Source: Promethearchaeota archaeon (GTDB lineage: Archaea; Asgardarchaeota; Lokiarchaeia; Sigyniarchaeales; SOKP01). Taken from it: a stretch of 64,000 bases of DNA. The stretch's first letter is position 1, and each line of letters begins with the position of its first letter. A program made the position numbers and the translations under genes. The notes below the pieces were generated by a model, which was given only the letters and a program-made list of their open reading frames with translations, had not been told where the DNA came from and searched no databases. Positions 5,593-16,993 of the stretch are shown piece after piece. The stretch is taken from NCBI GenBank assembly GCA_030599585.1, contig JAUVNS010000012.1:89919-153918 (forward strand). Reading direction: 5' to 3'.

Positions 5593-6739
5593 CTTTAATG
5601 TAAGTCTTTTTTATATTCTCTGATCTAGTTCTTTGAACAATAATGTTGTAAATACTTTCAGAATCAATCTTATACGTATAATAATTAGGGTTAGAAAGGT
5701 CAACTATAAAGAAATCAGCATATTTTCCTACTGAAATTGATCCGTATTCTTTTTCTAATCCCAAATTTCTAGCAGCAGTAATGGTAACCATTTCTAGTAG
5801 CTCTTTTGAGGAAAAATTCTTACAATCCTTATGAACGGCTAATACTCGGGAAATTCTATATAAATATCGCATTTCTTCGAATAAGTCAATATTGTTAGCC
5901 ATTACATTATCAGTACCAAGACTAATTGGGATTCCAAGATCACAAATCTCATTTATTGGCGGAAATCCACTTCCAAAATAACCGTTACATCTAGGACATA
6001 AGACCAGAGAGATGTTATTTTTTTTAAGTCTTTCCAAATCATCTTTTCTGTAATGAGTTCCATGTATAATGACGTCAATCAGCTGATCATTTATAATTTG
6101 ATTGAAGCGTATCTCGTCTCTCGAGAGTTCAGCATCGTGAGTCGCAACAATTTTGTCTAAATATTCTCTCTTCAAACTTCTGATAATTTCTTTGTTTTCC
6201 GAAGATAATTGATCGTAGCTTGCAAATCCCAGACCATCAGCACTTTTAAGAACGGGTTCAACTTCTGTTGTATCATAAAATCTTCCCAAGATGCGATAGT
6301 TAATCGGAGAATTTTGTAATGCTTCTTTTAAAAGGGCAATGCCAGTTAATCCATTTTCTCTAAAGTCGAAAAACATAGTTATACCGCTTGCGAGCATTTC
6401 TAATGCAGCCTCTCTTATTCCATGCATTTTTATTTCTTTTGAGGTTTTACTTAGTAATACATGTTTGATTCCATTTGGAGGAGCAACCGTTTCTATTAAA
6501 TCTTTATTAAATCCCTGTTCTTTTGCAAAGCTATCACATATGTGAACATGGGAATTGATAAATCCAGGGATCAATAGGGATATCTGTTTTTGTTTGGAGA
6601 GGGTGATATACTCTTCAATATTATCGTAGAATAAGTCTGTGATCTTTCCATTATCATCTAATTCTATTGAAATATTCTTCTTTAATTCTAATCTATCTCC
6701 AATCAAACCAAAGTTACTGCGAATGGTGGTGTTAGACAT
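5567..6739 (-). CDS. Metal-dependent amidohydrolase (deaminase-like)
   Basis: PGFINSHVHICD, DFRE, THDAE, IHGT, LCPRCN, LGTDN and GKYADF motifs; overlaps arfC. Confidence 0.85.
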   Translation of the reverse strand: MSNTTIRSNFGLIGDRLELKKNISIELDDNGKITDLFYDNIEEYITLSKQKQISLLIPGFINSHVHICDSFAKEQGFNKDLIETVAPPNGIKHVLLSKTSKEIKMHGIREAALEMLASGITMFFDFRENGLTGIALLKEALQNSPINYRILGRFYDTTEVEPVLKSADGLGFASYDQLSSENKEIIRSLKREYLDKIVATHDAELSRDEIRFNQIINDQLIDVIIHGTHYRKDDLERLKKNNISLVLCPRCNGYFGSGFPPINEICDLGIPISLGTDNVMANNIDLFEEMRYLYRISRVLAVHKDCKNFSSKELLEMVTITAARNLGLEKEYGSISVGKYADFFIVDLSNPNYYTYKIDSESIYNIIVQRTRSENIKKTYIKGVVEFERK

Positions 6740-6805
6740 AGGATACTCAAACTTTTTTGTTCATTCTATTAAAAAGAATTACCATTAACGACGATAAGGG
6801 CATAT

Positions 6806-7363
6806 TTAGATTTTTAGAAGTTCTAACGCCTCTGATCTGGTAGTAGGATTTGTTTTAAAAATACCTTTTATTGCTGATGTTATCATTATAGGGTTAGATT
6901 GCTTTACACCTCTCATTATCTCACATAAGTGAGTTCCTTTTACGATAACCATCACACCTCTCGGTTTTAAAGCACAGTCCATTAAATAATTAGCAATATC
7001 ATCAGTCATTTTTTCCTGAACATTTAACCGATGTGTAAAATAATTAACGACCCTTACGAATTTTGAAATTCCTAGAAGAAATTCTCCAGGCATATATACG
7101 ATATCAACTGTACCATAAAATGGTAGTATGTGGTGTTCACACATGCTGTAAAATTGAATACCTTTTGATACTATAATCTCACTATACTGCGCTTTAAAGA
7201 TCTTTATAACTTTATCTAAATCCAGCTGATATCCGTCAAAAATTTCACTGTACGAGTTAGCTACTCGTCTTGGAGTTTCTATCGTTGCTGGTCTTAATTC
7301 GTCATTGCCTTCAATTTCTTTAATAAGTTCGGATATTAGTTCTTGAACTCTTTCTTTATTCAT
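6806..7363 (-). CDS. folE: GTP cyclohydrolase I
   Basis: ETPRRVA, SMCEHHILPFYG, GISK, RLNVQE and HLCEIMRGV motifs. Confidence 0.92.
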   Translation of the reverse strand: MNKERVQELISELIKEIEGNDELRPATIETPRRVANSYSEIFDGYQLDLDKVIKIFKAQYSEIIVSKGIQFYSMCEHHILPFYGTVDIVYMPGEFLLGISKFVRVVNYFTHRLNVQEKMTDDIANYLMDCALKPRGVMVIVKGTHLCEIMRGVKQSNPIMITSAIKGIFKTNPTTRSEALELLKI

Positions 7364-7510
7364 TTTTTGAATTACTCTCTTTTTTAACTAATATATATTG
7401 AAATTTAAGAAAATATAAATAAATACTAGAATTAGCTAAAATTCGTCAAAGAATTAAAAAAGACTTTGAGCGTTTAATTTCTTTATTTTCAAGCTTGATC
7501 TTACTGTTTA

Positions 7511-8632
7511 TTATTTCTTCTTTAGGAATTGCTTATAAATTAGCACATAGTTTTTTACACTCACTACTTTAGGATTACGCCTAAAACTAGATGGGATAGG
7601 AGTGCTACAACGGGAACAGAGGTTTGAAGTCCGCATCCAATCTTTAAATTCATCAGCGTGGGAAGGATACCTACACTTTGGACACACAACTACTCCCCGT
7701 CCTCTATCTTCAGGAAGTTTTGGTAATTTAAAACAAAAGATGCACTTAAAATCCTCTAACGTTAAATACGATGCCCTTGGCCTAAAATTAGTCAGATTTC
7801 GAACCTTTGGAGTCGATTTGACTTTAGTTGTACGAGAAATATTTGAAGTTTTAGTTCTAGTAGTTTGTCTACGTGATGTGGGTGTTATTCTTGATGATTT
7901 AGTTCTTGAGCTTGATGTACGCGTAGTTGTCCTAGTAGAGGGAGTTGGATTAGTGACCCTCGTTGTCCGTACACGTTGTCTCTGTGTTGTAGGTGAGGTC
8001 AAATTATTAATCGTTCTAGTACGGTTTGCAATATAATCACGAGTTAATGTTGGTAATGATGAGCTTGTACTAGCAAATCCAAACACTATTACTATTAAAA
8101 TTGTAGCTAATAATAGAAGTAAGAGATTCAAATCCAATGGAAAACTTTCGTTAACGCTGTAAAAACTTATCCAATAGGTTAAAATGAAAATTAAAACAGA
8201 GAAGGATAGAATATATCCCAAGGTTCTCGCTTTTACTGCTTTTGTTCCAAAATATATTACGTTGTATTTTTTAAAACAGCGATATAGAGAGTAAGAGCCA
8301 AATATTATAAAAGGAAAAGCAAAAATAAGGCTCCATAAACTAAAATATAGACCTCCAAGTAGATTCTCTCCTAATACTCCTGTGTAAAAACCCCAAATAG
8401 AATAAAAAATTCCAATACCTAAAGGAACAATGACAAAAAATGCGGTATTATGTGGTGAATTAAACTCACGGTGACGTTTAATGTTTTCAAATATTTTTAA
8501 TGTAAAAATTAACCATAACCCAATTAATAACCAAGTTGCAAAATTAGTAAAAGAATAAGTGAGCAAACCATGAATTACACCAATAATCAGAAATGCGGTA
8601 AATATTATTGTTAAAATTTTATTTTTAACCAT
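7511..8632 (-). CDS. Polytopic (~6 TM) membrane protein with C-terminal RING-type zinc finger; putative E3 ligase
   Basis: Six hydrophobic segments in the first ~190 aa, then a Thr/Ser/Arg-rich linker, then CIFC-x16-CPKC-x4-H-x2-E-x3-W-x6-CSRC. Last gene of the Ubl-E1-E2-JAB run. Confidence 0.75.
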   Translation of the reverse strand: MVKNKILTIIFTAFLIIGVIHGLLTYSFTNFATWLLIGLWLIFTLKIFENIKRHREFNSPHNTAFFVIVPLGIGIFYSIWGFYTGVLGENLLGGLYFSLWSLIFAFPFIIFGSYSLYRCFKKYNVIYFGTKAVKARTLGYILSFSVLIFILTYWISFYSVNESFPLDLNLLLLLLATILIVIVFGFASTSSSLPTLTRDYIANRTRTINNLTSPTTQRQRVRTTRVTNPTPSTRTTTRTSSSRTKSSRITPTSRRQTTRTKTSNISRTTKVKSTPKVRNLTNFRPRASYLTLEDFKCIFCFKLPKLPEDRGRGVVVCPKCRYPSHADEFKDWMRTSNLCSRCSTPIPSSFRRNPKVVSVKNYVLIYKQFLKKK

Positions 8633-8663: not shown

Positions 8664-9488
8664 TTATTCATCATATTCTAAATATGCTGGTTTTCCATGA
8701 ATAATTGGGTTCATGAATTCCAAAATTTCTGGTAACATTCTCACATCTAAATGCCCCTTAATATCAAAAGGCACTGAGAACCACTTCCGAGTTTTAAAAT
8801 TTGCGCGATAAATTTCAAAACCAAAAGATTTCCCGTTAATTTGATATGGATCGATGACGAGTGCTACAGCTTTATTCCACAATTTCTGATACCTTGCCTG
8901 AGTTCCTAAATCTTCTCTTGACATGAAGCAGCCGTAACTCGGATGGGAATGATACCAGCCTGTAATAAAAAGCCCCTTTTTTTTAATATCTCTGAAAGCT
9001 CTCACATAATTCTTATAATCCTTTATTTCAGCATAAACCGCGGTCCCATGTCCCATTGGATAAGCATCCTCCAAGTGTAAGACTCCTTTAGCACTATCAT
9101 AGTTCCCTGCGAGTAAACCTATTACTTCCACCCAATCATCTCTAGGTATTTTAGAATTAGCATATTTTAAAGAATGGCTCGCGATCTTAAGAATTGCTTT
9201 TGTAGTGATAGCTATCTTAGCTTTAGTTCTCTCGTTACTAGCTACAGTTTTTACTGGTTCCATGGGGATGGGTTCAAGTTTGACTTTATTTGAATGAATA
9301 ATCGGCTTCGCTTTGATAATCTCAGTTGTTATTTCTTCTTGTAATTCTTCTAATTGTAACTCAGTGTATACTTCTTCAAGTAATTCTTTTTTAATTTTCT
9401 CTTTAATTTTTTGTTTTATAGCATCTCTGATTGATTCGCTATTCTTTTCATCGATATTCATTCTAGGTTCACCATTTATCCTTGGCAT
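8664..9488 (-). CDS. JAB/MPN+ metalloprotease (Rpn11/CSN5-like deubiquitinase/maturase)
   Basis: EVIGLLAG...GWYHSHPSYGCFMSREDLGTQ...VALVIDP is an intact JAMM motif; charged N-terminal extension. Confidence 0.92.
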   Translation of the reverse strand: MPRINGEPRMNIDEKNSESIRDAIKQKIKEKIKKELLEEVYTELQLEELQEEITTEIIKAKPIIHSNKVKLEPIPMEPVKTVASNERTKAKIAITTKAILKIASHSLKYANSKIPRDDWVEVIGLLAGNYDSAKGVLHLEDAYPMGHGTAVYAEIKDYKNYVRAFRDIKKKGLFITGWYHSHPSYGCFMSREDLGTQARYQKLWNKAVALVIDPYQINGKSFGFEIYRANFKTRKWFSVPFDIKGHLDVRMLPEILEFMNPIIHGKPAYLEYDE

Positions 9489-9996
9489 ACTTCTTTACTA
9501 AATTTTTAACTTTTTTATCAAAAAATTTCGGATTTTTCATCATTTCTATAGCTGCTTTTTTATTAAACACATCAGTCGGATTAACATATTTTCCTCGAGT
9601 GTTTAACATAGCAATTATTGCATGAACAACTGTAACCGCTGTTTTTGAAGGACTCCATCCTCCTTTTTTGCCAATTAGAGACGGATCTACTAAAGCTAAG
9701 CAAATATTTCTTTGTCCTTTATATTCACTTGGCTTTGGCCAAAAATTTGGGTGCCATATTGGAGTATGCAATCTAACAAAAGGAGGCTGTTTAGGATATT
9801 GAATGGGAAACCTCATTTCTAATTTAAACAATCCTCCAGCATAGGCAGTGCCTTTAGGGCCTTTAATCAATACAGCTAAGTGATCGATACTCTTTTTTTT
9901 TGGATTAAATGGCTTCAATTGAATAATAGTACCCTGTTTTAGCAACTTTTTTAGTCCCGCAAAATCTCGGGAAACTCGACTACTTCTTATACTCAT
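9469..9996 (-). CDS. Ubiquitin-conjugating enzyme E2
   Basis: IKGPKGTAYAGGLF, FPIQYPKQPP, IWHPN, catalytic NICL and WSPS motifs. Confidence 0.93.
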   Translation of the reverse strand: MSIRSSRVSRDFAGLKKLLKQGTIIQLKPFNPKKKSIDHLAVLIKGPKGTAYAGGLFKLEMRFPIQYPKQPPFVRLHTPIWHPNFWPKPSEYKGQRNICLALVDPSLIGKKGGWSPSKTAVTVVHAIIAMLNTRGKYVNPTDVFNKKAAIEMMKNPKFFDKKVKNLVKKYAKDKW

Positions 9997-10051: not shown

Positions 10052-11284
10052 TTATTTAATTTTTAAGGTTACATGAATTTCTCCGCCTTTAAACCCCGCA
10101 ACGGTTAGAAATTCGTAATTCCTTAAATTATTTTGAGTTGGGTTTTGCTCTAAATCTAAAACAATAATATCATTAAAATCCAATAGAGTTATTATCGGTT
10201 CAAATTCAGAATCCAATTCAAATCCATTTCTTTCTAGCGTATTAATTATATTTACGCAAGGTGAACTATCTCTCATTTTAATGGAAACTCGTCTTGCACT
10301 TTTACCACATTGAGAACATTCTGGATTTCTCTTCTTTTCAATGTGGTGTAATTTCATAGTCATCGCATTAAATATAATGTAATTTTTGATGGGCTCACCT
10401 AAGCCCTTGTGACCTTTTTCCCAATGAAGGATTTTAACCGCTTCATGAGATTGTAATGCTGAAATAGTTGCGTTAATCGTAATGATGCCAGGATCGTGGC
10501 GATCAATAATTTTTACGATATCATCTTCAGTATATTCAGGTAAAAAATTATGCTTTATTACATACTCATTCGCAACTTTTTGAATAAATCTAATATCTTC
10601 GATATTTTTAGGATTCGGATCTTTATCAAATTTCTCTTTAAAGGCCATATCCCCTTTAAAAACGCAATGAATTCTTTTTCGAGGGATACCAACTACTGTA
10701 CAAGCTGCCATATCATCATTTTGGATGTCGGGTAATGGATTACATTCATAACATGCATTTTGAAATGGAAATATCGTATATACATGACCATAATAACCAG
10801 AAACCCCTCCATCTACCAAAGGTTTCTTAAATCTAATGCATTGAGCGTTTAAGTTCAACCTTGCATTCATTGAATCAAGACCTCCAATTACAACATCTGA
10901 AGCGTGATAGAGTGCTGGATTTAATCTTTCTAAGGATGTATGATACCCTTTAACAATAATATTAGGATTAATTTCGACCAATTTTCTAGCAGCAATAAAT
11001 GCTTTAGGTTCTCCTAACTTTGCTCCAGCAAAGAGAATTTGACGATTCAGGTTAGAATGTTCAATTATATCAATATCAACAAGATCTATATGACCAACGC
11101 CCAACATACTTAAATTCTTGGCAATTTCACATCCCAAACCACCAACCCCAGCGATTAACACTCTTGAATTTTTAACTAATTTCTGGGACCAACCTTCTAA
11201 ACGAAATTGGCGATCGTATAAGTCTCTCTCTTCTTCTGACATTCCTTTTGTAAAAAAATCTGAATCCTTATGCAATATTATCAC
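10052..11284 (-). CDS. Ubiquitin-like activating enzyme E1 (UBA2/UBA3-like)
   Basis: LYDRQ, GVGGLGCE, SNLNRQ, GLDS..AR, ACYEC, catalytic AACT..GIPR...HC and C-terminal CSQC zinc motifs. Confidence 0.93.
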   Translation of the reverse strand: MIILHKDSDFFTKGMSEEERDLYDRQFRLEGWSQKLVKNSRVLIAGVGGLGCEIAKNLSMLGVGHIDLVDIDIIEHSNLNRQILFAGAKLGEPKAFIAARKLVEINPNIIVKGYHTSLERLNPALYHASDVVIGGLDSMNARLNLNAQCIRFKKPLVDGGVSGYYGHVYTIFPFQNACYECNPLPDIQNDDMAACTVVGIPRKRIHCVFKGDMAFKEKFDKDPNPKNIEDIRFIQKVANEYVIKHNFLPEYTEDDIVKIIDRHDPGIITINATISALQSHEAVKILHWEKGHKGLGEPIKNYIIFNAMTMKLHHIEKKRNPECSQCGKSARRVSIKMRDSSPCVNIINTLERNGFELDSEFEPIITLLDFNDIIVLDLEQNPTQNNLRNYEFLTVAGFKGGEIHVTLKIK

Positions 11285-11364
11285 CTTTAATATTAATCAA
11301 AAAAATAAAAAAATTGAAGGGCTTAATGCCCTTATCATATATTATATTTTATGAAAAGAATTAT

Positions 11365-11697
11365 TTAAAAGTATCCAGCTGTACTCGCTGGGATCAAAAG
11401 AATATCGTCGCCGTTACTAACACTATAGTCTTTTAACTGGCTACCTTCATCCATTGTTACGCCACCAGAACTAATGTGAAAGTCATCTGGATCAAGTCCA
11501 AATAAATTTCCAAGCGTTTGTTTGATATCACTTATGTTATTTGCGTCGTTTACAGTCAACTTTTCCTTCTTTTCACCAGGACCAATAGTTGACATGAAAT
11601 ATAAAGTCAATTTTTTGCCTGTTGAGGGAACTTTGCTTGATGGGGTTTTAGAGCTAACTGGTTCTAATTCCTCATCAAAATCTTCATCAAAACTCAT
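11365..11697 (-). CDS. Ubiquitin-like modifier with acidic N-tail; precursor ends ...ASTAG-YF
   Basis: Beta-grasp pattern (ISDIK...FGLDPDDFHISSGG..MDEGSQLKDYSV..GDDILLIP). First gene of the E1-E2-JAB operon. Confidence 0.88.
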   Translation of the reverse strand: MSFDEDFDEELEPVSSKTPSSKVPSTGKKLTLYFMSTIGPGEKKEKLTVNDANNISDIKQTLGNLFGLDPDDFHISSGGVTMDEGSQLKDYSVSNGDDILLIPASTAGYF

Positions 11698-11958
11698 TCA
11701 AATCACTCCTTTATTTTTTTAATTTAAGTTTTTTTTTAAAACTTAATAATATCACGTTAAAATGATATTAAAAAACCCATTGGAATGATTTTGAAGTTTT
11801 TTGAGTTTTGTTTAAAATGTGAGTATCCATGTTAAAAAACCTAATATAATATATTTATAAATTAAATGAATGTCTATCAATATATATAAATAGGAAAATA
11901 TCGTTTTAGAGAGAAGATTTGATAAAATATATCAGTTAATTCAACCCGTTAAAATAAA

Positions 11959-12642
11959 ATGCTTATGAACACTCCGGATAACCTTCAATCTATTGTTTGT
12001 GATATCATAAAGGAATATCTAAAAAAGAAACCTTTCTTTTCAATAGAAGATATAGTGGTGTTCATCGCTAATAGAGTGAGATCGAATCCTAATCTAAATA
12101 GGAACAGCATTGAACTCATTATTAAAAATCTTATAAAAAAAAGAATTCTGATCCCTGGAACCAAATTAATGAAGAATAATATAATAGAATTACCAATACG
12201 AAACGAAATTTACAACCATATTAAGAAACACCCATCGAACATTAATGAAATAATGAAAGCAATCAATATTGGAAGCAACCAAGCGCTCTGGCATTTGTCC
12301 ACGTTAGAGAAGTTTAGATTTACGCGATCAAAAAAAATCAATAATCAAAGAATGATTTTTGAATATGAATCTAATCCCGATCTAGATGAGTTGTATTACT
12401 ATTTGAAACAGGATGTTGTGCAAGATATTATCAACCTTCTGAAAGAAGAACACAAAACCTTTAAAATCACGGAAATAGCTGCGAATTTAAAAAGAAATTA
12501 CAATACTGTAAAGAAATATCTTGAAATATTAAGAAATCTGAAAATAATAAAAATTGAAAAAAATAAAAAAAGAGTTCTATATAGAATAGACCTAGAGAAA
12601 TATGACAATCTCAAGAAATCAATTATTGATAATGAACTATAA
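11959..12642 (+). CDS. Double winged-helix transcriptional regulator (ArsR-like)
   Basis: RNEIYNHIKKHP..INEI...ALWHLSTL and ITEIAANLKRNYNTVKKYLEIL HTH segments; divergent from the Ubl operon. Confidence 0.75.
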   Translation: MLMNTPDNLQSIVCDIIKEYLKKKPFFSIEDIVVFIANRVRSNPNLNRNSIELIIKNLIKKRILIPGTKLMKNNIIELPIRNEIYNHIKKHPSNINEIMKAINIGSNQALWHLSTLEKFRFTRSKKINNQRMIFEYESNPDLDELYYYLKQDVVQDIINLLKEEHKTFKITEIAANLKRNYNTVKKYLEILRNLKIIKIEKNKKRVLYRIDLEKYDNLKKSIIDNEL

Positions 12643-12721
12643 AAATTACGAATTTATACCAATTGAATTTATAAAATTAGATAATAATTAGAAAATTAGA
12701 TAATACTTTAATCAAAAAATC

Positions 12722-13516
12722 ATGAAGAAAAAATATAGAGTTTTAAATATTATAACTCTTTATGTTGTTTTCGCTTTAATCTATTTGACTTTCTTCCTAT
12801 TACAACTAGATAGTTTACCATTATTCCTCTTTCTAACTATTGGGAGTGTTGCTGTATTATCGACAGGTACGATCTATACCGTCGTTCAATATAAAAGCAG
12901 CCCAGCGAAGAGGATAAAAAAAGACAAATATTATCAAAAGCCAAAATCTATCAAAAGAACTTCGAGTGAACTGATTGAGGATTACCTTGAAGCTATGCCA
13001 TTAATAGATCAATACGCTGACACCACTGAAACCTTTGAAAATATTGATTCAATCGATGATTATATTTTTACTTTTTTCACTCAGGAAGTATTAGATAAAA
13101 TCGATTTGTTAGGGTTTTCAAAAATGGATAAAATCTTTTTTATCAGAGAGATGTTGTATTTTGATGCTGATGAGAGAAAGCAACTTATTGATGATATTTT
13201 GAAAAATAAAGATTTAATTGACGAACAGATAACATACAACCCTCCATTAACCACAATTGGAATGGATGATAAAGTTCGCGTTTATGTAAGATCCTTAGTC
13301 GAACCGGGGGAGAGAACCAAAATCATCATTATTGAAACCTCCGAATTAATAGATATAATCAAGGAGCAAGTTGGAATTCTTTTTGATTATAGTTTGGAAG
13401 ATTTTCATTTATCTTCGGGGGGAATTCTCCTTTCCACAGAAAAGCAAATAAAGGACTATTTTATTGACGATGATGACGAAATTGCTCTGATTCCGTCGAG
13501 AAAAAAAGATAAATAG
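12722..13516 (+). CDS. Membrane-anchored (2 TM) protein with C-terminal ubiquitin-like domain lacking terminal Gly
   Basis: Two N-terminal TM helices. The C-terminal EPGE...IKEQVGILFD...DFHLSSGG...IKDY...DDEIALIP aligns with the two Ubls; ends PSRKKDK. Confidence 0.8.
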   Translation: MKKKYRVLNIITLYVVFALIYLTFFLLQLDSLPLFLFLTIGSVAVLSTGTIYTVVQYKSSPAKRIKKDKYYQKPKSIKRTSSELIEDYLEAMPLIDQYADTTETFENIDSIDDYIFTFFTQEVLDKIDLLGFSKMDKIFFIREMLYFDADERKQLIDDILKNKDLIDEQITYNPPLTTIGMDDKVRVYVRSLVEPGERTKIIIIETSELIDIIKEQVGILFDYSLEDFHLSSGGILLSTEKQIKDYFIDDDDEIALIPSRKKDK

Positions 13517-13532
13517 AATGAGATTTTTTTTC

Positions 13533-15191
13533 CTAGAGATTTCTAATTTCTTGAAACCTACTAATAACCCATTTTTTATCCAAGGCAGCTATGAATGGTG
13601 CAAACCGAGGACCCCTTGTTCTTCCAAGAAACAATTGATAGAGTAGTTCAAAGAATTGATTCATATCCTTACGATTTATTTCTGCTTCTTCTCGTAAGGT
13701 TATCATTTTTTGTTTTATATCTTCCTCAGTCCAGTTTGTTTCTTCGAGTGCTTGTCCAAGATCTAAAACAAAGTTACGTATCTTTTCGTTATACTGCCTT
13801 AAAACAACTGGCGAAACGTGTTTGCTTAATTGTATTCTGAGATGTTTTGGAGAATATTCTGATATTACCCAATTCTTAGCCAGATTTAATCTTTTTTGAA
13901 TATGATCAGTAATCTCCTTTGATGGGCTTTCTTTTAACTTTTCTGTTGCTATTAATTTTTCAATAACTTGTTCAGTTCCCTTTTGGTCAGGAGTTACTAG
14001 TTGGGAATGAATAAGAGCAGTTTGATAGTCAAATTGGAATCCTCTATATTCTGGGATGTCATTATAAAACGCAATTTCATAACTCCTTTGAATTGTATGA
14101 AGTTCTGCTGAATCGGTAAATGATTCTATTTTATGATAGATTCTCTGGGCTCGATCGTATTCTGCAATATAACTCGGGATCTTATCTAAACCCAGAATAA
14201 TGCGTCTTTTTGGAGGTGTTTTGAGATATTTATATTTCAATACTTCTGGTTCAGCATATTCTAACCATTTTGTTGGTGTGAACCCGATGAAACCTGAGCT
14301 TGTCATATCTCCAAAATCTTTTCGACCTTCTGAATAGCCAACCCATTCATTCCAAAATCCATATGGCCCTTTATGATTTAGGACAGATTCTAGAACTTCA
14401 ATACAACTATCACGGGATCCTCCTGGTGTAGCATGGTCCTTTCCATACGGTTCAAAATGTATATCCAGAACGTACCATATTGCCAACCATTCAAGCCGCC
14501 AAGTTAATTTTCCCTTGCTAATATCTGACCATCCGTCGTTCTTGCATTCATCACAGAAATAATGAACTTGGTAGGTATCAAGATTAACTTCCAAAGCTTT
14601 TGTTGTACCTATTCGATTACAATGCTGACATAGTGGATTAATGGGAATCCAATTCTCGGGAAAAGGATTTTCTTTACGAAATTTATTTAAGATTTCTCGA
14701 ACCTTGTCCTTTTTGTTAATAAGCTCGATTACTACATTTTTCATTCTCTCCTGCTGATATAATTCATGAGTTCTGATGATCTGAATGCCTCGTCCAAATT
14801 TGGGCATTGGTACTCCAAAATCTTTCCAATAATAATCCACCCAGGTTTCTTTTTGATTGTTAGGAGAAGGAACATCGATTAAACGCCAGTTAATAAATTC
14901 TTTTGCTTTCTCCAGATCTGGAAACGCATTTAATTGAGCAAGTTTCCCCTTCCATGGGTCTGATGTATAGAGAATTAAATTGTGTGTGGCTTGATATCCC
15001 CGATTTTGGAGTTCATTTACAATCGCATTCGCAAGAACAATCTCTCCTCTTAAGCGTCCGATGTGTTGTTGACCAGATACAGAAATTCCACAATTGCAAT
15101 TAAAATCTTTTATTCCTAGCCAATTCTTTATTAGATCGGATGTTAATTTATCTATCCAATGCTGAGGTTGTATCTTTGGCTTCTCTGTCAT
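13533..15191 (-). CDS. lysS: Lysine--tRNA ligase, class I
   Basis: HWID, SGQQHIGRLRG, KLTWRLEW, EPYGKDH...GGS and C-terminal GPR motifs; KMSSS appears as DMTSS. Confidence 0.93.
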   Translation of the reverse strand: MTEKPKIQPQHWIDKLTSDLIKNWLGIKDFNCNCGISVSGQQHIGRLRGEIVLANAIVNELQNRGYQATHNLILYTSDPWKGKLAQLNAFPDLEKAKEFINWRLIDVPSPNNQKETWVDYYWKDFGVPMPKFGRGIQIIRTHELYQQERMKNVVIELINKKDKVREILNKFRKENPFPENWIPINPLCQHCNRIGTTKALEVNLDTYQVHYFCDECKNDGWSDISKGKLTWRLEWLAIWYVLDIHFEPYGKDHATPGGSRDSCIEVLESVLNHKGPYGFWNEWVGYSEGRKDFGDMTSSGFIGFTPTKWLEYAEPEVLKYKYLKTPPKRRIILGLDKIPSYIAEYDRAQRIYHKIESFTDSAELHTIQRSYEIAFYNDIPEYRGFQFDYQTALIHSQLVTPDQKGTEQVIEKLIATEKLKESPSKEITDHIQKRLNLAKNWVISEYSPKHLRIQLSKHVSPVVLRQYNEKIRNFVLDLGQALEETNWTEEDIKQKMITLREEAEINRKDMNQFFELLYQLFLGRTRGPRFAPFIAALDKKWVISRFQEIRNL

Positions 15192-15324
15192 TCTTACTTA
15201 TCACTTTGAGATAGATGATTATTTATAATAATGAAGAATAAAAGAAAAATTTAATTGGAACTTGTTTTGGTGAGAGTTTCGTTTTCTGTTTTACTAGTGT
15301 TTTTATAAAGTCCTTCCAACTTAT

Positions 15325-15711
15325 TCAACCAGCAATGCTAGCTGGAATTAATAATATATCATCTCCATCAGCTACATTGTAATCGTTAAGGTTAGAGAAT
15401 TCATCCATGGTAACTCCCCCTGAAGACAAATGAAAATCAGATGGATCTAAAGCAAATAAATTCGCTACAGTATCTTTGATGTCTCCAATTTTATTCCCTG
15501 TGAATACAAGCAATTTTTGTTTTTTCTCCCCTGGTCCTATAGTGGATAGAAAAAAAACTGAAATCTTTTTTCCTTCAGGAGACTTTTTGCGTTCTGGGGT
15601 CTTAACTCTAAAATCTTTTGTAGGGTGCTTTGAAGACGGATCGTCAAAATCTTCATCTAAGCTTTCATCAAAATCCTCATCGAATTCTTCGTCGAACTCC
15701 TCTTCATCCAT
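15325..15711 (-). CDS. Second ubiquitin-like modifier, mature C-terminus ...ASIAG
   Basis: Close paralogue of 11365..11697 (STIGPGEKK, DFHLSSGGVTMDE, GDDILLIPAS) with a longer acidic DEEF/DEDF tail. Confidence 0.88.
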   Translation of the reverse strand: MDEEEFDEEFDEDFDESLDEDFDDPSSKHPTKDFRVKTPERKKSPEGKKISVFFLSTIGPGEKKQKLLVFTGNKIGDIKDTVANLFALDPSDFHLSSGGVTMDEFSNLNDYNVADGDDILLIPASIAG

Positions 15712-15889: not shown

Positions 15890-16993
15890 ATGAAGGAAAA
15901 ACCTATTCCTAAGTATCAAATTCGAGAAAAAACGCCCGAAGAGCAACTAGAACCCATCCCTAATGCGAAATTACTTAAAAAAATTAAGGAAGAAAGAATT
16001 AAATTAAATAAAGAGAAAACTGAATGGGAACGAATTATTAATAAAATTGAAGGGTCTCAAGATAATATTCAAGATTTAGAAAAAAAAAGAAAAGAAAAAG
16101 AACTTCAAGTGAGAGATCTCCAAAACAAACACGAAAAACTAAAAACTAAATTAGATAATATGAGAAACGAAATAAAAGAAAGTAAATATAATCTCAATGC
16201 AAAAGAAAGGGAGTTAGACCAGAAAAATGCCGACTTAGAGCAATATAAAGAGAGATTAGACGGAATAAGAGGCGAATTAGAAAGCGAGAAGAAATACATA
16301 GAAAAAGAAAAAGAAAAAGCAAAAGACAGAATTAAAGAAATAAAAACCAAGTTACCCGGAATGGAACGGAGAGAGAATGCGTTAGAGAGAACAATCGAAA
16401 AGTTGGAAAACAATTTAATGGATTTACGAAACGAAGGTAAAAGCTTAACGAGAGAGAGAGATAACCTAAACAAAGAAATCAATAGTTTGAGAAGAGAGAT
16501 AATAGATGAAAAAAATCGAATTGATAATGAGAAAAGAAGATTAAAAGATGAAAAGGAAAAGGTTCGCTATAAGAAAAAAGACTTAAGTCTTCAAGCTCGT
16601 GATATTGAGAAAAAAAAAGAGAAATTGGGAAAATTTAAAGAGAATGTAAACCACGACGTAAGAGATTTAGAAAGAAAGAAAAAAGGGCACGAGGCAAGGT
16701 TAAAAGAATTAGACCGGAAAGTACCCAAAGCTGAAGATACTTATTTTTCACTAGAACACAAAATTAATAATTCAGAGAATAAATTGAAAAATTTAAAAAC
16801 CGAAATAAAAAAATTGGAAAAGGAAAAATCGAAAATTGAGGATGATAAATTTTCAATTAGAAAGGAGAGGCAAAGATTAGACAGTGATAAAGAGAGATTT
16901 CTTAGAGAAAAGAAAAGTTTTGAGAGAGAATTAAAAAAGGCAAAAGAAATACCAAAATATAAAATCAAATCAAAAACTCCTTCGAGATATTAA
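15890..16993 (+). CDS. Long charged coiled-coil protein with IPKY(Q/K)I motif at both ends
   Basis: E/K/R-rich heptads over ~320 aa; no globular motif seen. Confidence 0.7.
   Translation: MKEKPIPKYQIREKTPEEQLEPIPNAKLLKKIKEERIKLNKEKTEWERIINKIEGSQDNIQDLEKKRKEKELQVRDLQNKHEKLKTKLDNMRNEIKESKYNLNAKERELDQKNADLEQYKERLDGIRGELESEKKYIEKEKEKAKDRIKEIKTKLPGMERRENALERTIEKLENNLMDLRNEGKSLTRERDNLNKEINSLRREIIDEKNRIDNEKRRLKDEKEKVRYKKKDLSLQARDIEKKKEKLGKFKENVNHDVRDLERKKKGHEARLKELDRKVPKAEDTYFSLEHKINNSENKLKNLKTEIKKLEKEKSKIEDDKFSIRKERQRLDSDKERFLREKKSFERELKKAKEIPKYKIKSKTPSRY

What the first reader, a model, noticed from the sequence alone, without database searches (positions are those of the whole stretch)
11365..15711. 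Two Ala-Gly-terminated ubiquitin-like modifiers: one precursor (AG-YF), one mature (AG-stop), both with acidic N-tails
Seen: the paralogues end LLIPASTAG|YF and LLIPASIAG*, with no di-Gly, and have SUMO-like acidic disordered N-termini with repeated FDE(D/E) units. Established: single-Gly termini occur in UFM1 (RIIPRDRVG|SC, two residues removed) and ATG8; the IP-x3-A-G|xx ending here parallels that UFM1 pattern. Inference: the operon's JAB trims YF to license paralogue 1, while paralogue 2 (separately transcribed, upstream of lysS) is conjugation-ready. That would give protease-gated and constitutive modifiers sharing one E1.
Basis: partly seen in the sequence, partly recalled or inferred. 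Interest (0 to 1): 0.78.

Follow-up and report, generated by a model that had tools for sequence, protein, structure and literature searches.

The report
Asgard ubiquitin-like tags ending Ala-Gly
Two small ubiquitin-family protein tags of a Loki-type Asgard archaeon do end in Ala-Gly instead of ubiquitin's Gly-Gly, a trait fixed across a large Asgard family.

Summary
Observation confirmed. Window 11365-11697(-) encodes 110 aa ending LIPASTAG+YF. Window 15325-15711(-) encodes 128 aa ending LIPASIAG+stop. The two are 60% identical, and both model as ubiquitin beta-grasps with disordered acidic N-arms.

The S-x-A-G end is invariant or nearly so in every homologue set I read, drawn from many Asgard families. 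It is followed by 0-7 unconserved residues in free Ubls. Tandem poly-Ubl genes join their units exactly after AG.

The AG aligns with ubiquitin G75-G76. The nearest fold is Caldiarchaeum ubiquitin. The enzymes are canonical: a UBA2/UBA1/UBA3-like E1, a UBC E2 and an Rpn11-like JAB. This is a ubiquitin variant, not a UFM1 analogue.

The "protease-gated versus constitutive" reading is only partly supported:
- Of 20 congeneric genomes, 7 show this pattern, 8 have both tags mature and 5 have both capped.
- The tail state changes at least 7 times on the tree, and JAB was present in all four related loci checked.
- The stable paralogue difference is the N-arm: 28 vs ~53 aa, and 2 vs 4 Phe-acidic units.
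- lysS is a local insertion.

A separate GG-type Ubl with its own E1/E2 exists elsewhere in the genome, so both AG tags plausibly share the operon E1.

This scan has already reported the family on other genomes, and my independent tests agree.

The parts
11365..11697 (-). Ubl1: 110-aa ubiquitin-type modifier precursor. N-arm is residues 1-27 (11617-11697), beta-grasp 28-103 (11389-11616), conserved tail A-S-T-A-G 104-108 (11374-11388), cap Y-F (11368-11373), TAA stop.
15325..15711 (-). Ubl2: 128-aa paralogue that ends at the Gly. N-arm is residues 1-48 (15568-15711), beta-grasp 49-123 (15343-15567), tail A-S-I-A-G (15328-15342), TGA stop.
11641..11658 (-). Lys-Thr-Pro arm motif of Ubl1 (V-S-S-K-T-P, residues 14-19)
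15595..15612 (-). Lys-Thr-Pro arm motif of Ubl2 (F-R-V-K-T-P, residues 34-39)
11300..11333 (-). GC hairpin plus long T-run between Ubl1 and E1. Candidate terminator or attenuator, kept with compensatory changes in relatives.
10052..11284 (-). E1 (ThiF fold, C-T...P-R...H-C catalytic-Cys segment, two CxxC pairs)
9469..9996 (-). E2 (UQ_con, HPN...Cys)
8664..9488 (-). JAB/Rpn11-like metalloprotease with an intact H-x-H-x7-S-x2-D motif
7511..8632 (-). Multi-pass membrane protein with a C-terminal Cys/His zinc-binding (RING-like) domain. Candidate E3.
   Evidence: no Pfam RING hit; the assignment is by pattern and by conserved operon position
12722..13516 (+). Membrane-anchored protein whose C-terminal domain is a third member of the Ubl family without a terminal Gly (non-conjugatable)
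11959..12642 (+). Winged-helix regulator, conserved between Ubl1 and the membrane Ubl in the genus
15890..16993 (+). Coiled-coil protein divergent from Ubl2, conserved beside the Ubl across the order. It carries the same Lys-Thr-Pro motif at both ends (15920-15937 and 16964-16981).

Best explanation
Both genes encode members of a large Asgard family of ubiquitin-type modifiers. Their mature C-terminus is Ser-x-Ala-Gly, which is ubiquitin's tail with the penultimate Gly replaced by Ala.

Proposed mechanism:
1. The terminal Gly is adenylated by the operon's canonical E1 and passed as a thioester to the E1 Cys and then to the UBC-type E2.
2. It is transferred to Lys residues with the help of the membrane-anchored RING-like protein.
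3. The Rpn11-like JAB removes any residues encoded after the Gly and reverses conjugation.

These enzymatic steps are inferred by homology. They are not shown here.

In this genome Ubl1 needs trimming of Y-F and Ubl2 does not. That difference is a labile character of the family, not the functional distinction between the paralogues. The distinction that is conserved lies in the disordered N-arm: about 28 aa with two Phe-acidic units and weak charge in Ubl1, against about 53 aa with four units and a charge near -17 in Ubl2. Both arms keep a Lys-Thr-Pro motif.

The AG end probably keeps this pathway separate from a second, Gly-Gly-type Ubl/E1/E2 set in the same cell.
For: Fold and homology:
- AF2 models of both proteins are ubiquitin beta-grasps.
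- The Foldseek top hits are Caldiarchaeum ubiquitin 6FNO/6FJ7, then ubiquitin, ISG15 and NEDD8.
- The family profile hits ubiquitin chains in the PDB and aligns AG with G75-G76.
- phmmer reaches eukaryotic polyubiquitins.

Conserved reactive end:
- AG is invariant with variable tails.
- Tri- and di-Ubl genes join their units exactly after AG.
- vWA-Ubl and HerA-like-Ubl fusions keep the Ubl domain C-terminal. The HerA-like one ends at AG, and the vWA ones carry 6-14 more residues.

Enzymes:
- ThiF E1, UQ_con E2 and JAB are in one co-oriented cluster.
- JAB's best solved relative is CsRpn11.
- The E1's best relatives are SAE2, UBA1 and UBA3.
- The cluster is syntenic across three families of the order.
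- The family was found in 122 of 301 genomes sampled from the phylum.

Tail lability:
- At least 7 state changes on the tree.
- Per-genome combinations are 8 none/none, 7 tail/none and 5 tail/tail.
- Identical cores occur with and without a tail.
- JAB is retained in genomes where both tags are already mature.

Arm difference.

Second pathway:
- A GG-type Ubl sits on another contig.
- A second E1 and E2 lie together on C34.
- They are conserved in genomes that have only one AG-type Ubl, and are linked to the GG Ubl in one genome.

Precedent: capped pro-ubiquitin is inert to E1, and Rpn11 trims it (PMC5654768, PMC6043591).
Against: - No biochemical or proteomic evidence of conjugation exists for any member that I could find.
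- The two window proteins score below Pfam's ubiquitin cut-off (22.1 and 16.3 against 25.4 bits).
- CsRpn11 processes a penultimate Gly-to-Ala mutant much more slowly, and bulky residues just after the cleavage site block it (PMC6043591). An Ala at P2 and a Tyr at P1' would therefore need an adapted protease.
- Tail presence is biased between the paralogues: 20 of 28 Ubl1-clade copies are capped against 5 of 21 Ubl2 copies, and the reverse combination (Ubl1 mature, Ubl2 capped) was not seen.
- The RING assignment has no Pfam support.
Confidence: 0.7

Rival explanations
1. One reading: Ubl1 is a protease-gated modifier licensed by JAB, and Ubl2 is a constitutively ready one. The pair would give two regulatory modes on one E1.
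For: - In this genome Ubl1 is capped and Ubl2 is not.
- 7 of 20 congeneric genomes share the pattern and none shows the reverse.
- Capped forms are commoner in the Ubl1 clade.
- Y-F is the commonest cap among close homologues (33 of 120).
- A bulky residue just after the cleavage site slows or blocks CsRpn11 (PMC6043591), which could make the cap rate-limiting.
Against: - 13 of 20 genomes have both tags capped or both mature.
- There are at least 5 state changes inside the Ubl1 clade alone.
- Identical cores carry no tail in one genome and a seven-residue tail in another.
- Caps are unconserved in sequence and length.
- The GG-type Ubl of the same archaea shows the same lability.
- JAB is kept where nothing needs trimming.
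Confidence: 0.2
2. The two paralogues belong to different pathways: Ubl1 uses the operon E1/E2, and Ubl2 uses the second E1/E2 pair on contig C34.
For: A second canonical E1 (526 aa) and E2 (169 aa) lie about 1.7 kb apart with no Ubl gene beside them. Ubl2 is not in the operon.
Against: - The second E1 is conserved in genomes that have a single AG-type Ubl.
- Those genomes also keep a GG-type Ubl, and in one genome it lies within a few kb of the E1b-like gene.
- Ubl1 and Ubl2 share the same last eight residues apart from one position.
- Ubl2 sits at the ancestral position next to the coiled-coil gene of the same locus.
Confidence: 0.08
3. The proteins are non-covalent ubiquitin-like adaptors. 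The conserved end is a binding epitope, not a conjugation site.
For: - A non-conjugatable membrane-anchored paralogue exists in the same locus.
- Ubiquitin's I44, K48 and K63 equivalents are not kept (alignment).
- No conjugates have been demonstrated.
Against: - The invariance stops exactly at a Gly and is followed by free variation or a stop.
- Head-to-tail poly-Ubl genes exist.
- The genes are strictly linked to an E1 with a catalytic Cys segment, an E2 with HPN-Cys and an intact JAMM protease.
Confidence: 0.05
4. This is a UFM1-like system: a single-Gly modifier with a two-residue propeptide.
For: The Ile-Pro-x4-Gly spacing and a two-residue extension resemble UFM1 (sequence; the UFM1 ending is recalled from general knowledge).
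Against: - No Ufm1 Pfam match in the three Ubls or anywhere in the genome.
- The E1 is much closer to UBA2/UBA1/UBA3 (E about 1e-38 to 1e-33) than to UBA5 (about 1e-14).
- The E2 is UQ_con.
- UFM1 is absent from the listed best fold matches.
- The same spacing holds for ubiquitin itself.
Confidence: 0.02

Closest known systems
Caldiarchaeum subterraneum ubiquitin operon (CsUb, E1-like, E2-like, small RING finger protein, CsRpn11; PMC5654768, PMC6043591)
   Same: - The gene set is the same.
- CsUb is the best fold match of Ubl1, and CsRpn11 is the best solved relative of the JAB.
- The modifier is encoded with a short C-terminal cap.
   Different: - CsUb ends Gly-Gly and has no acidic N-arm.
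- Its RING protein is small and soluble. Here the RING-like domain sits on a multi-pass membrane protein.
- Here there are two free paralogues plus a membrane-anchored non-conjugatable one.
Eukaryotic ubiquitin and polyubiquitin genes
   Same: - Beta-grasp fold and detectable sequence homology.
- Equal tail length.
- Precursors with extra C-terminal residues.
- Relatives of this family occur as head-to-tail poly-Ubl genes.
   Different: - The penultimate Gly is Ala.
- The I44 patch, K48 and K63 are not conserved.
- There is a three-residue longer beta1-beta2 loop.
- Each unit carries a long disordered N-arm.
SUMO-2/3
   Same: - A disordered N-terminal arm carrying a conserved Lys.
- The best solved relative of the E1 is SAE2/UBA2.
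- Lower-ranking fold matches to SUMO1.
   Different: - No Gly-Gly and no psi-K-x-E motif.
- The arm is much more acidic and repetitive.
- Sequence similarity is weaker than to ubiquitin.
Helarchaeial pro-ubiquitin system (10.1101/2023.07.25.550441)
   Same: An Asgard E1/E2/RING set with a capped modifier, reconstituted in vitro.
   Different: That modifier ends Gly-Gly plus four residues. It corresponds in type to the separate GG Ubl found on another contig of this genome.
UFM1
   Same: A single terminal Gly and a short propeptide.
   Different: Different Ubl family, E1 type (UBA5) and E2 type (UFC1). None of these is matched here.

Membership tests
Ubiquitin-type conjugatable modifier (ubiquitin family, PF00240) | Beta-grasp fold of ubiquitin topology | tested here: met
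   The AF2 models show strands and helices in ubiquitin order. Foldseek probability is 1.00 to CsUb, ubiquitin, NEDD8 and ISG15.
Ubiquitin-type conjugatable modifier (ubiquitin family, PF00240) | Sequence homology to ubiquitin | tested here: met
   The family profile hits single ubiquitin chains at about E 1e-5 and polyubiquitin at 1e-48. phmmer finds polyubiquitins. Many homologues carry PF00240. The two window proteins themselves are below the Pfam cut-off.
Ubiquitin-type conjugatable modifier (ubiquitin family, PF00240) | C-terminal Gly-Gly | tested here: not met
   Ala-Gly in both proteins and in nearly all family members. There is one GG exception among the representatives.
Ubiquitin-type conjugatable modifier (ubiquitin family, PF00240) | Conserved terminal Gly, exposed directly or after removal of a variable extension | tested here: met
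Ubiquitin-type conjugatable modifier (ubiquitin family, PF00240) | Covalent attachment through an E1-E2(-E3) cascade | not testable with these tools
   Only the genes are seen: an E1 with a catalytic Cys segment, an E2 with HPN-Cys, JAB and a RING-like protein.
Caldiarchaeum-type archaeal ubiquitin operon | Linked Ub, E1, E2, RING and Rpn11-like genes | tested here: met
   The RING is assigned by Cys/His pattern only.
Caldiarchaeum-type archaeal ubiquitin operon | Small soluble RING finger protein | tested here: not met
   The zinc-binding domain is at the C-terminus of a 373-aa protein with several hydrophobic helices.
UFM1 system | Ufm1-family modifier | tested here: not met
   No PF03671 match in the Ubls or in the whole genome at E up to 0.1.
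UFM1 system | UBA5-type E1 and UFC1-type E2 | tested here: not met
   The E1 matches UBA2/UBA1/UBA3 about 20 orders of magnitude better than UBA5. The E2 is UQ_con.
SUMO | Gly-Gly end, psi-K-x-E acceptor consensus read by the E2 | tested here: not met
   There is no GG end. The arm motif is x-S-K-T-P, not psi-K-x-E. Whether the Lys is an acceptor is untested.

The most novel reading that the evidence does not exclude
The invariant Lys of the x-S-K-T-P motif is the acceptor site recognised by this pathway. The motif is present in the N-arm of nearly every family member and at both ends of the conserved neighbouring coiled-coil protein, and the Lys is never replaced by Arg. If so, the arms would allow SUMO-2/3-like chain building and the coiled-coil protein would be a dedicated substrate. 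The paralogues would differ in arm valency. The Ala-Gly end would insulate the system from the co-resident Gly-Gly ubiquitin pathway. That would mean two orthogonal ubiquitin-type codes existed before eukaryotes.
Probability: 0.2. Interest if true: 0.75.

Novelty: new variant of a known kind. Interest (0 to 1): 0.5.

Why it matters
Asgard ubiquitin systems are the reference point for how eukaryotic ubiquitin signalling arose. This family shows three things:
- A complete, canonical-looking E1/E2/RING/Rpn11 set can be built around a tag whose penultimate Gly is Ala.
- Such a set coexists with a Gly-Gly system in one cell.
- Capped, uncapped, tandem and fused precursor forms all occur, as in eukaryotes.

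There is also a practical point. The last Lys or Arg of Ubl1 is 19 residues before the end, so tryptic di-Gly remnant proteomics would be blind to these conjugates.

In the papers I could search the Loki ubiquitin gene cluster is catalogued, but I found no description of the Ala-Gly end or of the arms.

Tried and rejected
- UFM1 analogy: rejected.
- Functional link of Ubl2 to lysS: rejected. In two congeneric loci the membrane-Ubl gene and Ubl2 are adjacent with no lysS between them. Only this genome and its closest relative show the extra gap.
- Ubl2 served by the second E1: made unlikely.
- Proteome-wide use of the Lys-Thr-Pro motif: only 6 ORFs of at least 80 aa match the strict pattern genome-wide, about the number expected from composition by my own rough estimate. 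Two of the six lie in this locus, and the rest look like chance. The motif is local to this system, not a general signal.
- Genomic context of the tri-Ubl gene: only contigs of about 1.2 kb were found.
- PDB entries named 'putative ubiquitin' (8HM1-3) turned out to be Bacteroides ubiquitin homologues, not Asgard proteins.
- Literature searches for an Ala-Gly or non-di-Gly Loki modifier, or for Asgard polyubiquitin genes, found nothing specific.
- A docking of the N-arm onto its own beta-grasp was not predicted. The arms stay at low confidence.

Full report
**What is there**

The window is AT-rich, about 32% GC. By the names attached to close homologues it comes from a Promethearchaeota (Loki-type Asgard) archaeon.

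On the minus strand, five co-oriented genes run from 11697 down to 7511:
- Ubl1 (110 aa)
- a ThiF-fold E1
- a UQ_con E2
- a JAB/MPN+ protease with an intact metal-binding motif
- a multi-pass membrane protein with a C-terminal Cys/His zinc-binding domain

Ubl2 (128 aa) lies 3.6 kb further on, on the same strand. Between the two lie a winged-helix regulator, a membrane protein whose C-terminal domain is a third, Gly-less member of the same Ubl family, and a class I lysyl-tRNA synthetase.

**What the proteins are**

AlphaFold2 models of both give a confident ubiquitin-topology beta-grasp. It is preceded by an arm without secondary structure and followed by a five-residue flexible tail.

- The best structural matches of Ubl1 are Caldiarchaeum ubiquitin alone and in complex with its Rpn11. 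Next come ubiquitin variants, ISG15, ubiquitin, NEDD8 and, lower down, SUMO1. UFM1 is not among the listed best matches.
- A profile of 32 family members finds ubiquitin in the PDB by sequence. It places the family's I-P-x-S-T-A-G on ubiquitin's V-L-R-L-R-G-G, so AG corresponds to G75-G76.
- An exhaustive phmmer search with the Ubl1 core returns family members at 40-75% identity and then eukaryotic polyubiquitins.
- In the same alignment the equivalents of ubiquitin I44, K48 and K63 are Ser, Val/Arg and an acidic or small residue. The beta1-beta2 loop is three residues longer.

**The Ala-Gly end is a family character and marks the mature terminus**

In all of the following sets the sequence up to the Gly is invariant or nearly so, while 0-7 unrelated residues or a stop follow (up to 14 in the vWA-Ubl fusions):
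- 120 close homologues
- about 60 genomic copies from 32 related genomes
- the 50%-identity representatives
- copies fetched from six further families of the phylum

Two metagenomic proteins are head-to-tail arrays of three and two complete units (acidic arm, Lys-Thr-Pro motif, beta-grasp). In them each AG is followed directly by the next unit's arm. This is the arrangement of eukaryotic polyubiquitin genes.

The domain also occurs at the C-terminus of vWA and HerA-like proteins. The HerA-like fusion ends at AG, and the vWA fusions carry 6-14 more residues.

The family was found in 122 of 301 genomes sampled from the phylum. It was present in most genomes of some families and in none of others.

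**The enzymes are canonical, not UFM1-type**

- JAB's best solved relative is CsRpn11, followed by eukaryotic Rpn11 and CSN5.
- The E1's best relatives are SAE2/UBA2, UBA1 and UBA3. UBA5 scores some twenty orders of magnitude worse.
- The E2 is UBC-type with HPN and Cys.
- Pfam's Ufm1 model matches nothing in the Ubls or in the genome.

I could not confirm that for this genome with that model.

**Is the capped/uncapped pair a design?**

A tree of 56 Ubl cores shows a strongly supported Ubl1 clade (100/99). It lies among Ubl2-type sequences of the same genus. The single-copy genes of two other families branch outside, so the duplication is recent.

- The tail state needs at least 7 changes on this tree: 5 inside the Ubl1 clade and 2 among Ubl2.
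- Two genomes with identical Ubl1 cores carry no tail in one and a seven-residue tail in the other.
- Among 20 genomes with both paralogues, 8 have both mature, 7 match this window and 5 have both capped. The reverse of the window's pattern was not seen.
- All seven single-copy genes have a one- or two-residue cap, so capping is probably ancestral and is lost repeatedly by a stop arising after the Gly.
- The GG-type Ubl of the same archaea shows the same behaviour, with tails of 13, 1, 1, 0 and 1 residues.
- JAB is retained in loci where both tags are already mature. Trimming therefore cannot be its only role, and deconjugation, as shown for CsRpn11 (PMC6043591), is the likely main one.

It is still true for this genome that Ubl1 must lose Y-F before activation and Ubl2 need not. 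In Caldiarchaeum the capped form is inert to E1 (PMC5654768). There is a bias towards capped Ubl1. A bulky residue just after the cleavage site slowed or blocked CsRpn11 (PMC6043591). I therefore leave the gating idea at about one in five.

**What does distinguish the paralogues**

| | Ubl1-clade arms | Ubl2 arms |
|---|---|---|
| Length | 28-29 residues | 45-58 residues |
| Phe-acidic units | 1-2 (median 2) | 2-4 (median 4) |
| Net charge | about -3 | about -17 |

Both arms keep one or two copies of a Lys-Thr-Pro motif with consensus V/I/P, K/S/A, S, K, T, P. Of 93 arms examined, 83 have Lys-x-Pro and 72 have Lys-Thr-Pro, and none of those without Lys-Thr/Ser-Pro carries Arg-Thr/Ser-Pro instead.

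The same motif stands at both ends of the coiled-coil protein encoded divergently from Ubl2. That gene is a conserved neighbour of the Ubl across three families of the order. Genome-wide, only six ORFs match a strict form of the motif.

An earlier follow-up of this scan reads the Lys as the attachment site. I confirm the pattern but cannot test that reading.

**Locus history and pathway assignment**

In the genus, the conserved order is:
- membrane RING-like, JAB, E2, E1, Ubl1 (one strand)
- regulator, membrane Ubl (other strand)
- Ubl2 (first strand)
- coiled-coil, a 349-aa protein, a TPR protein

lysS sits between the membrane Ubl and Ubl2 only here and, by spacing, in the closest relative.

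Elsewhere the genome has a Pfam-significant ubiquitin-family gene ending Gly-Gly plus 13 residues. It also has a second canonical E1 and E2 lying together. These are conserved in genomes that have a single AG-type Ubl. In one genome the GG Ubl lies within a few kb of the E1b-like gene. By elimination, both AG tags most likely use the operon E1.

**Comparison with what is known**

The Loki ubiquitin gene cluster is catalogued (PMC9192718). The Caldiarchaeum and Helarchaeial systems have been reconstituted (PMC5654768, PMC6043591, 10.1101/2023.07.25.550441), and all of those involve Gly-Gly tags. I found no paper describing the Ala-Gly end, the arms or the poly-Ubl genes.

This scan has already reported the family on several other genomes. 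My results were obtained independently on this window and agree with those reports.

**Verdict**

- It is wrong about the UFM1 analogy and the lysS link.
- It is weak on gating as a conserved design.

Noticed in passing
P0121 (372 aa) and P0122 (250 aa), metagenomic proteins; loci L088, L089: These are head-to-tail arrays of three and two complete AG-type Ubl units. Each unit has its own acidic arm, and the units are joined directly after Ala-Gly, so they are polyubiquitin-like precursor genes in this archaeal family. The repeats are only about 50-60% identical, so an assembly artefact is unlikely. The contigs are about 1.2 kb, so there is no context.
   Followed up: partly
G000 contig C47:25945-26235 (locus L066:1453-1743) and contig C34 (locus L087:4407-4916 and 6625-8205): A separate Gly-Gly-type ubiquitin-family gene (96 aa, GG followed by 13 residues) and a second canonical E2 and E1 pair. 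They are conserved in related genomes, and the tail after GG is as variable as in the AG family.
   Followed up: partly
window 11300-11333 (-): A GC hairpin followed by a long T-run lies between the Ubl1 stop and the E1 start. It is kept, with different stem sequences, in two congeneric genomes and in one genome of another family of the order; a fourth related locus lacks it. It may terminate most Ubl1 transcripts, so that the tag is made in excess of its enzymes.
   Followed up: partly
window 15890-16993 (+): The coiled-coil protein carries an I-R/K-E/S-K-T-P motif within 20 residues of both ends. Its gene neighbours the Ubl in three families of the order.
   Followed up: partly
window 13533-15191 (-): The class I lysyl-tRNA synthetase gene is inserted between the membrane-Ubl gene and Ubl2. 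It is absent from this position in two congeneric loci.
   Followed up: yes
L054:692-2155 (-) and P0139: The AG-type Ubl domain is fused to the C-terminus of a vWA-domain protein (next to the membrane RING-like gene in another family) and of a HerA-like ATPase.
   Followed up: partly
window 12722-13516 (+): The membrane-anchored paralogue of the Ubl ends without Gly. It is conserved in the genus between the regulator and Ubl2.
   Followed up: partly
G000 contigs C35, C23, C9, C52: Five further JAB-domain ORFs of 319-515 aa exist in the genome besides the operon one. They could also act on Ubl precursors or conjugates.
   Followed up: no
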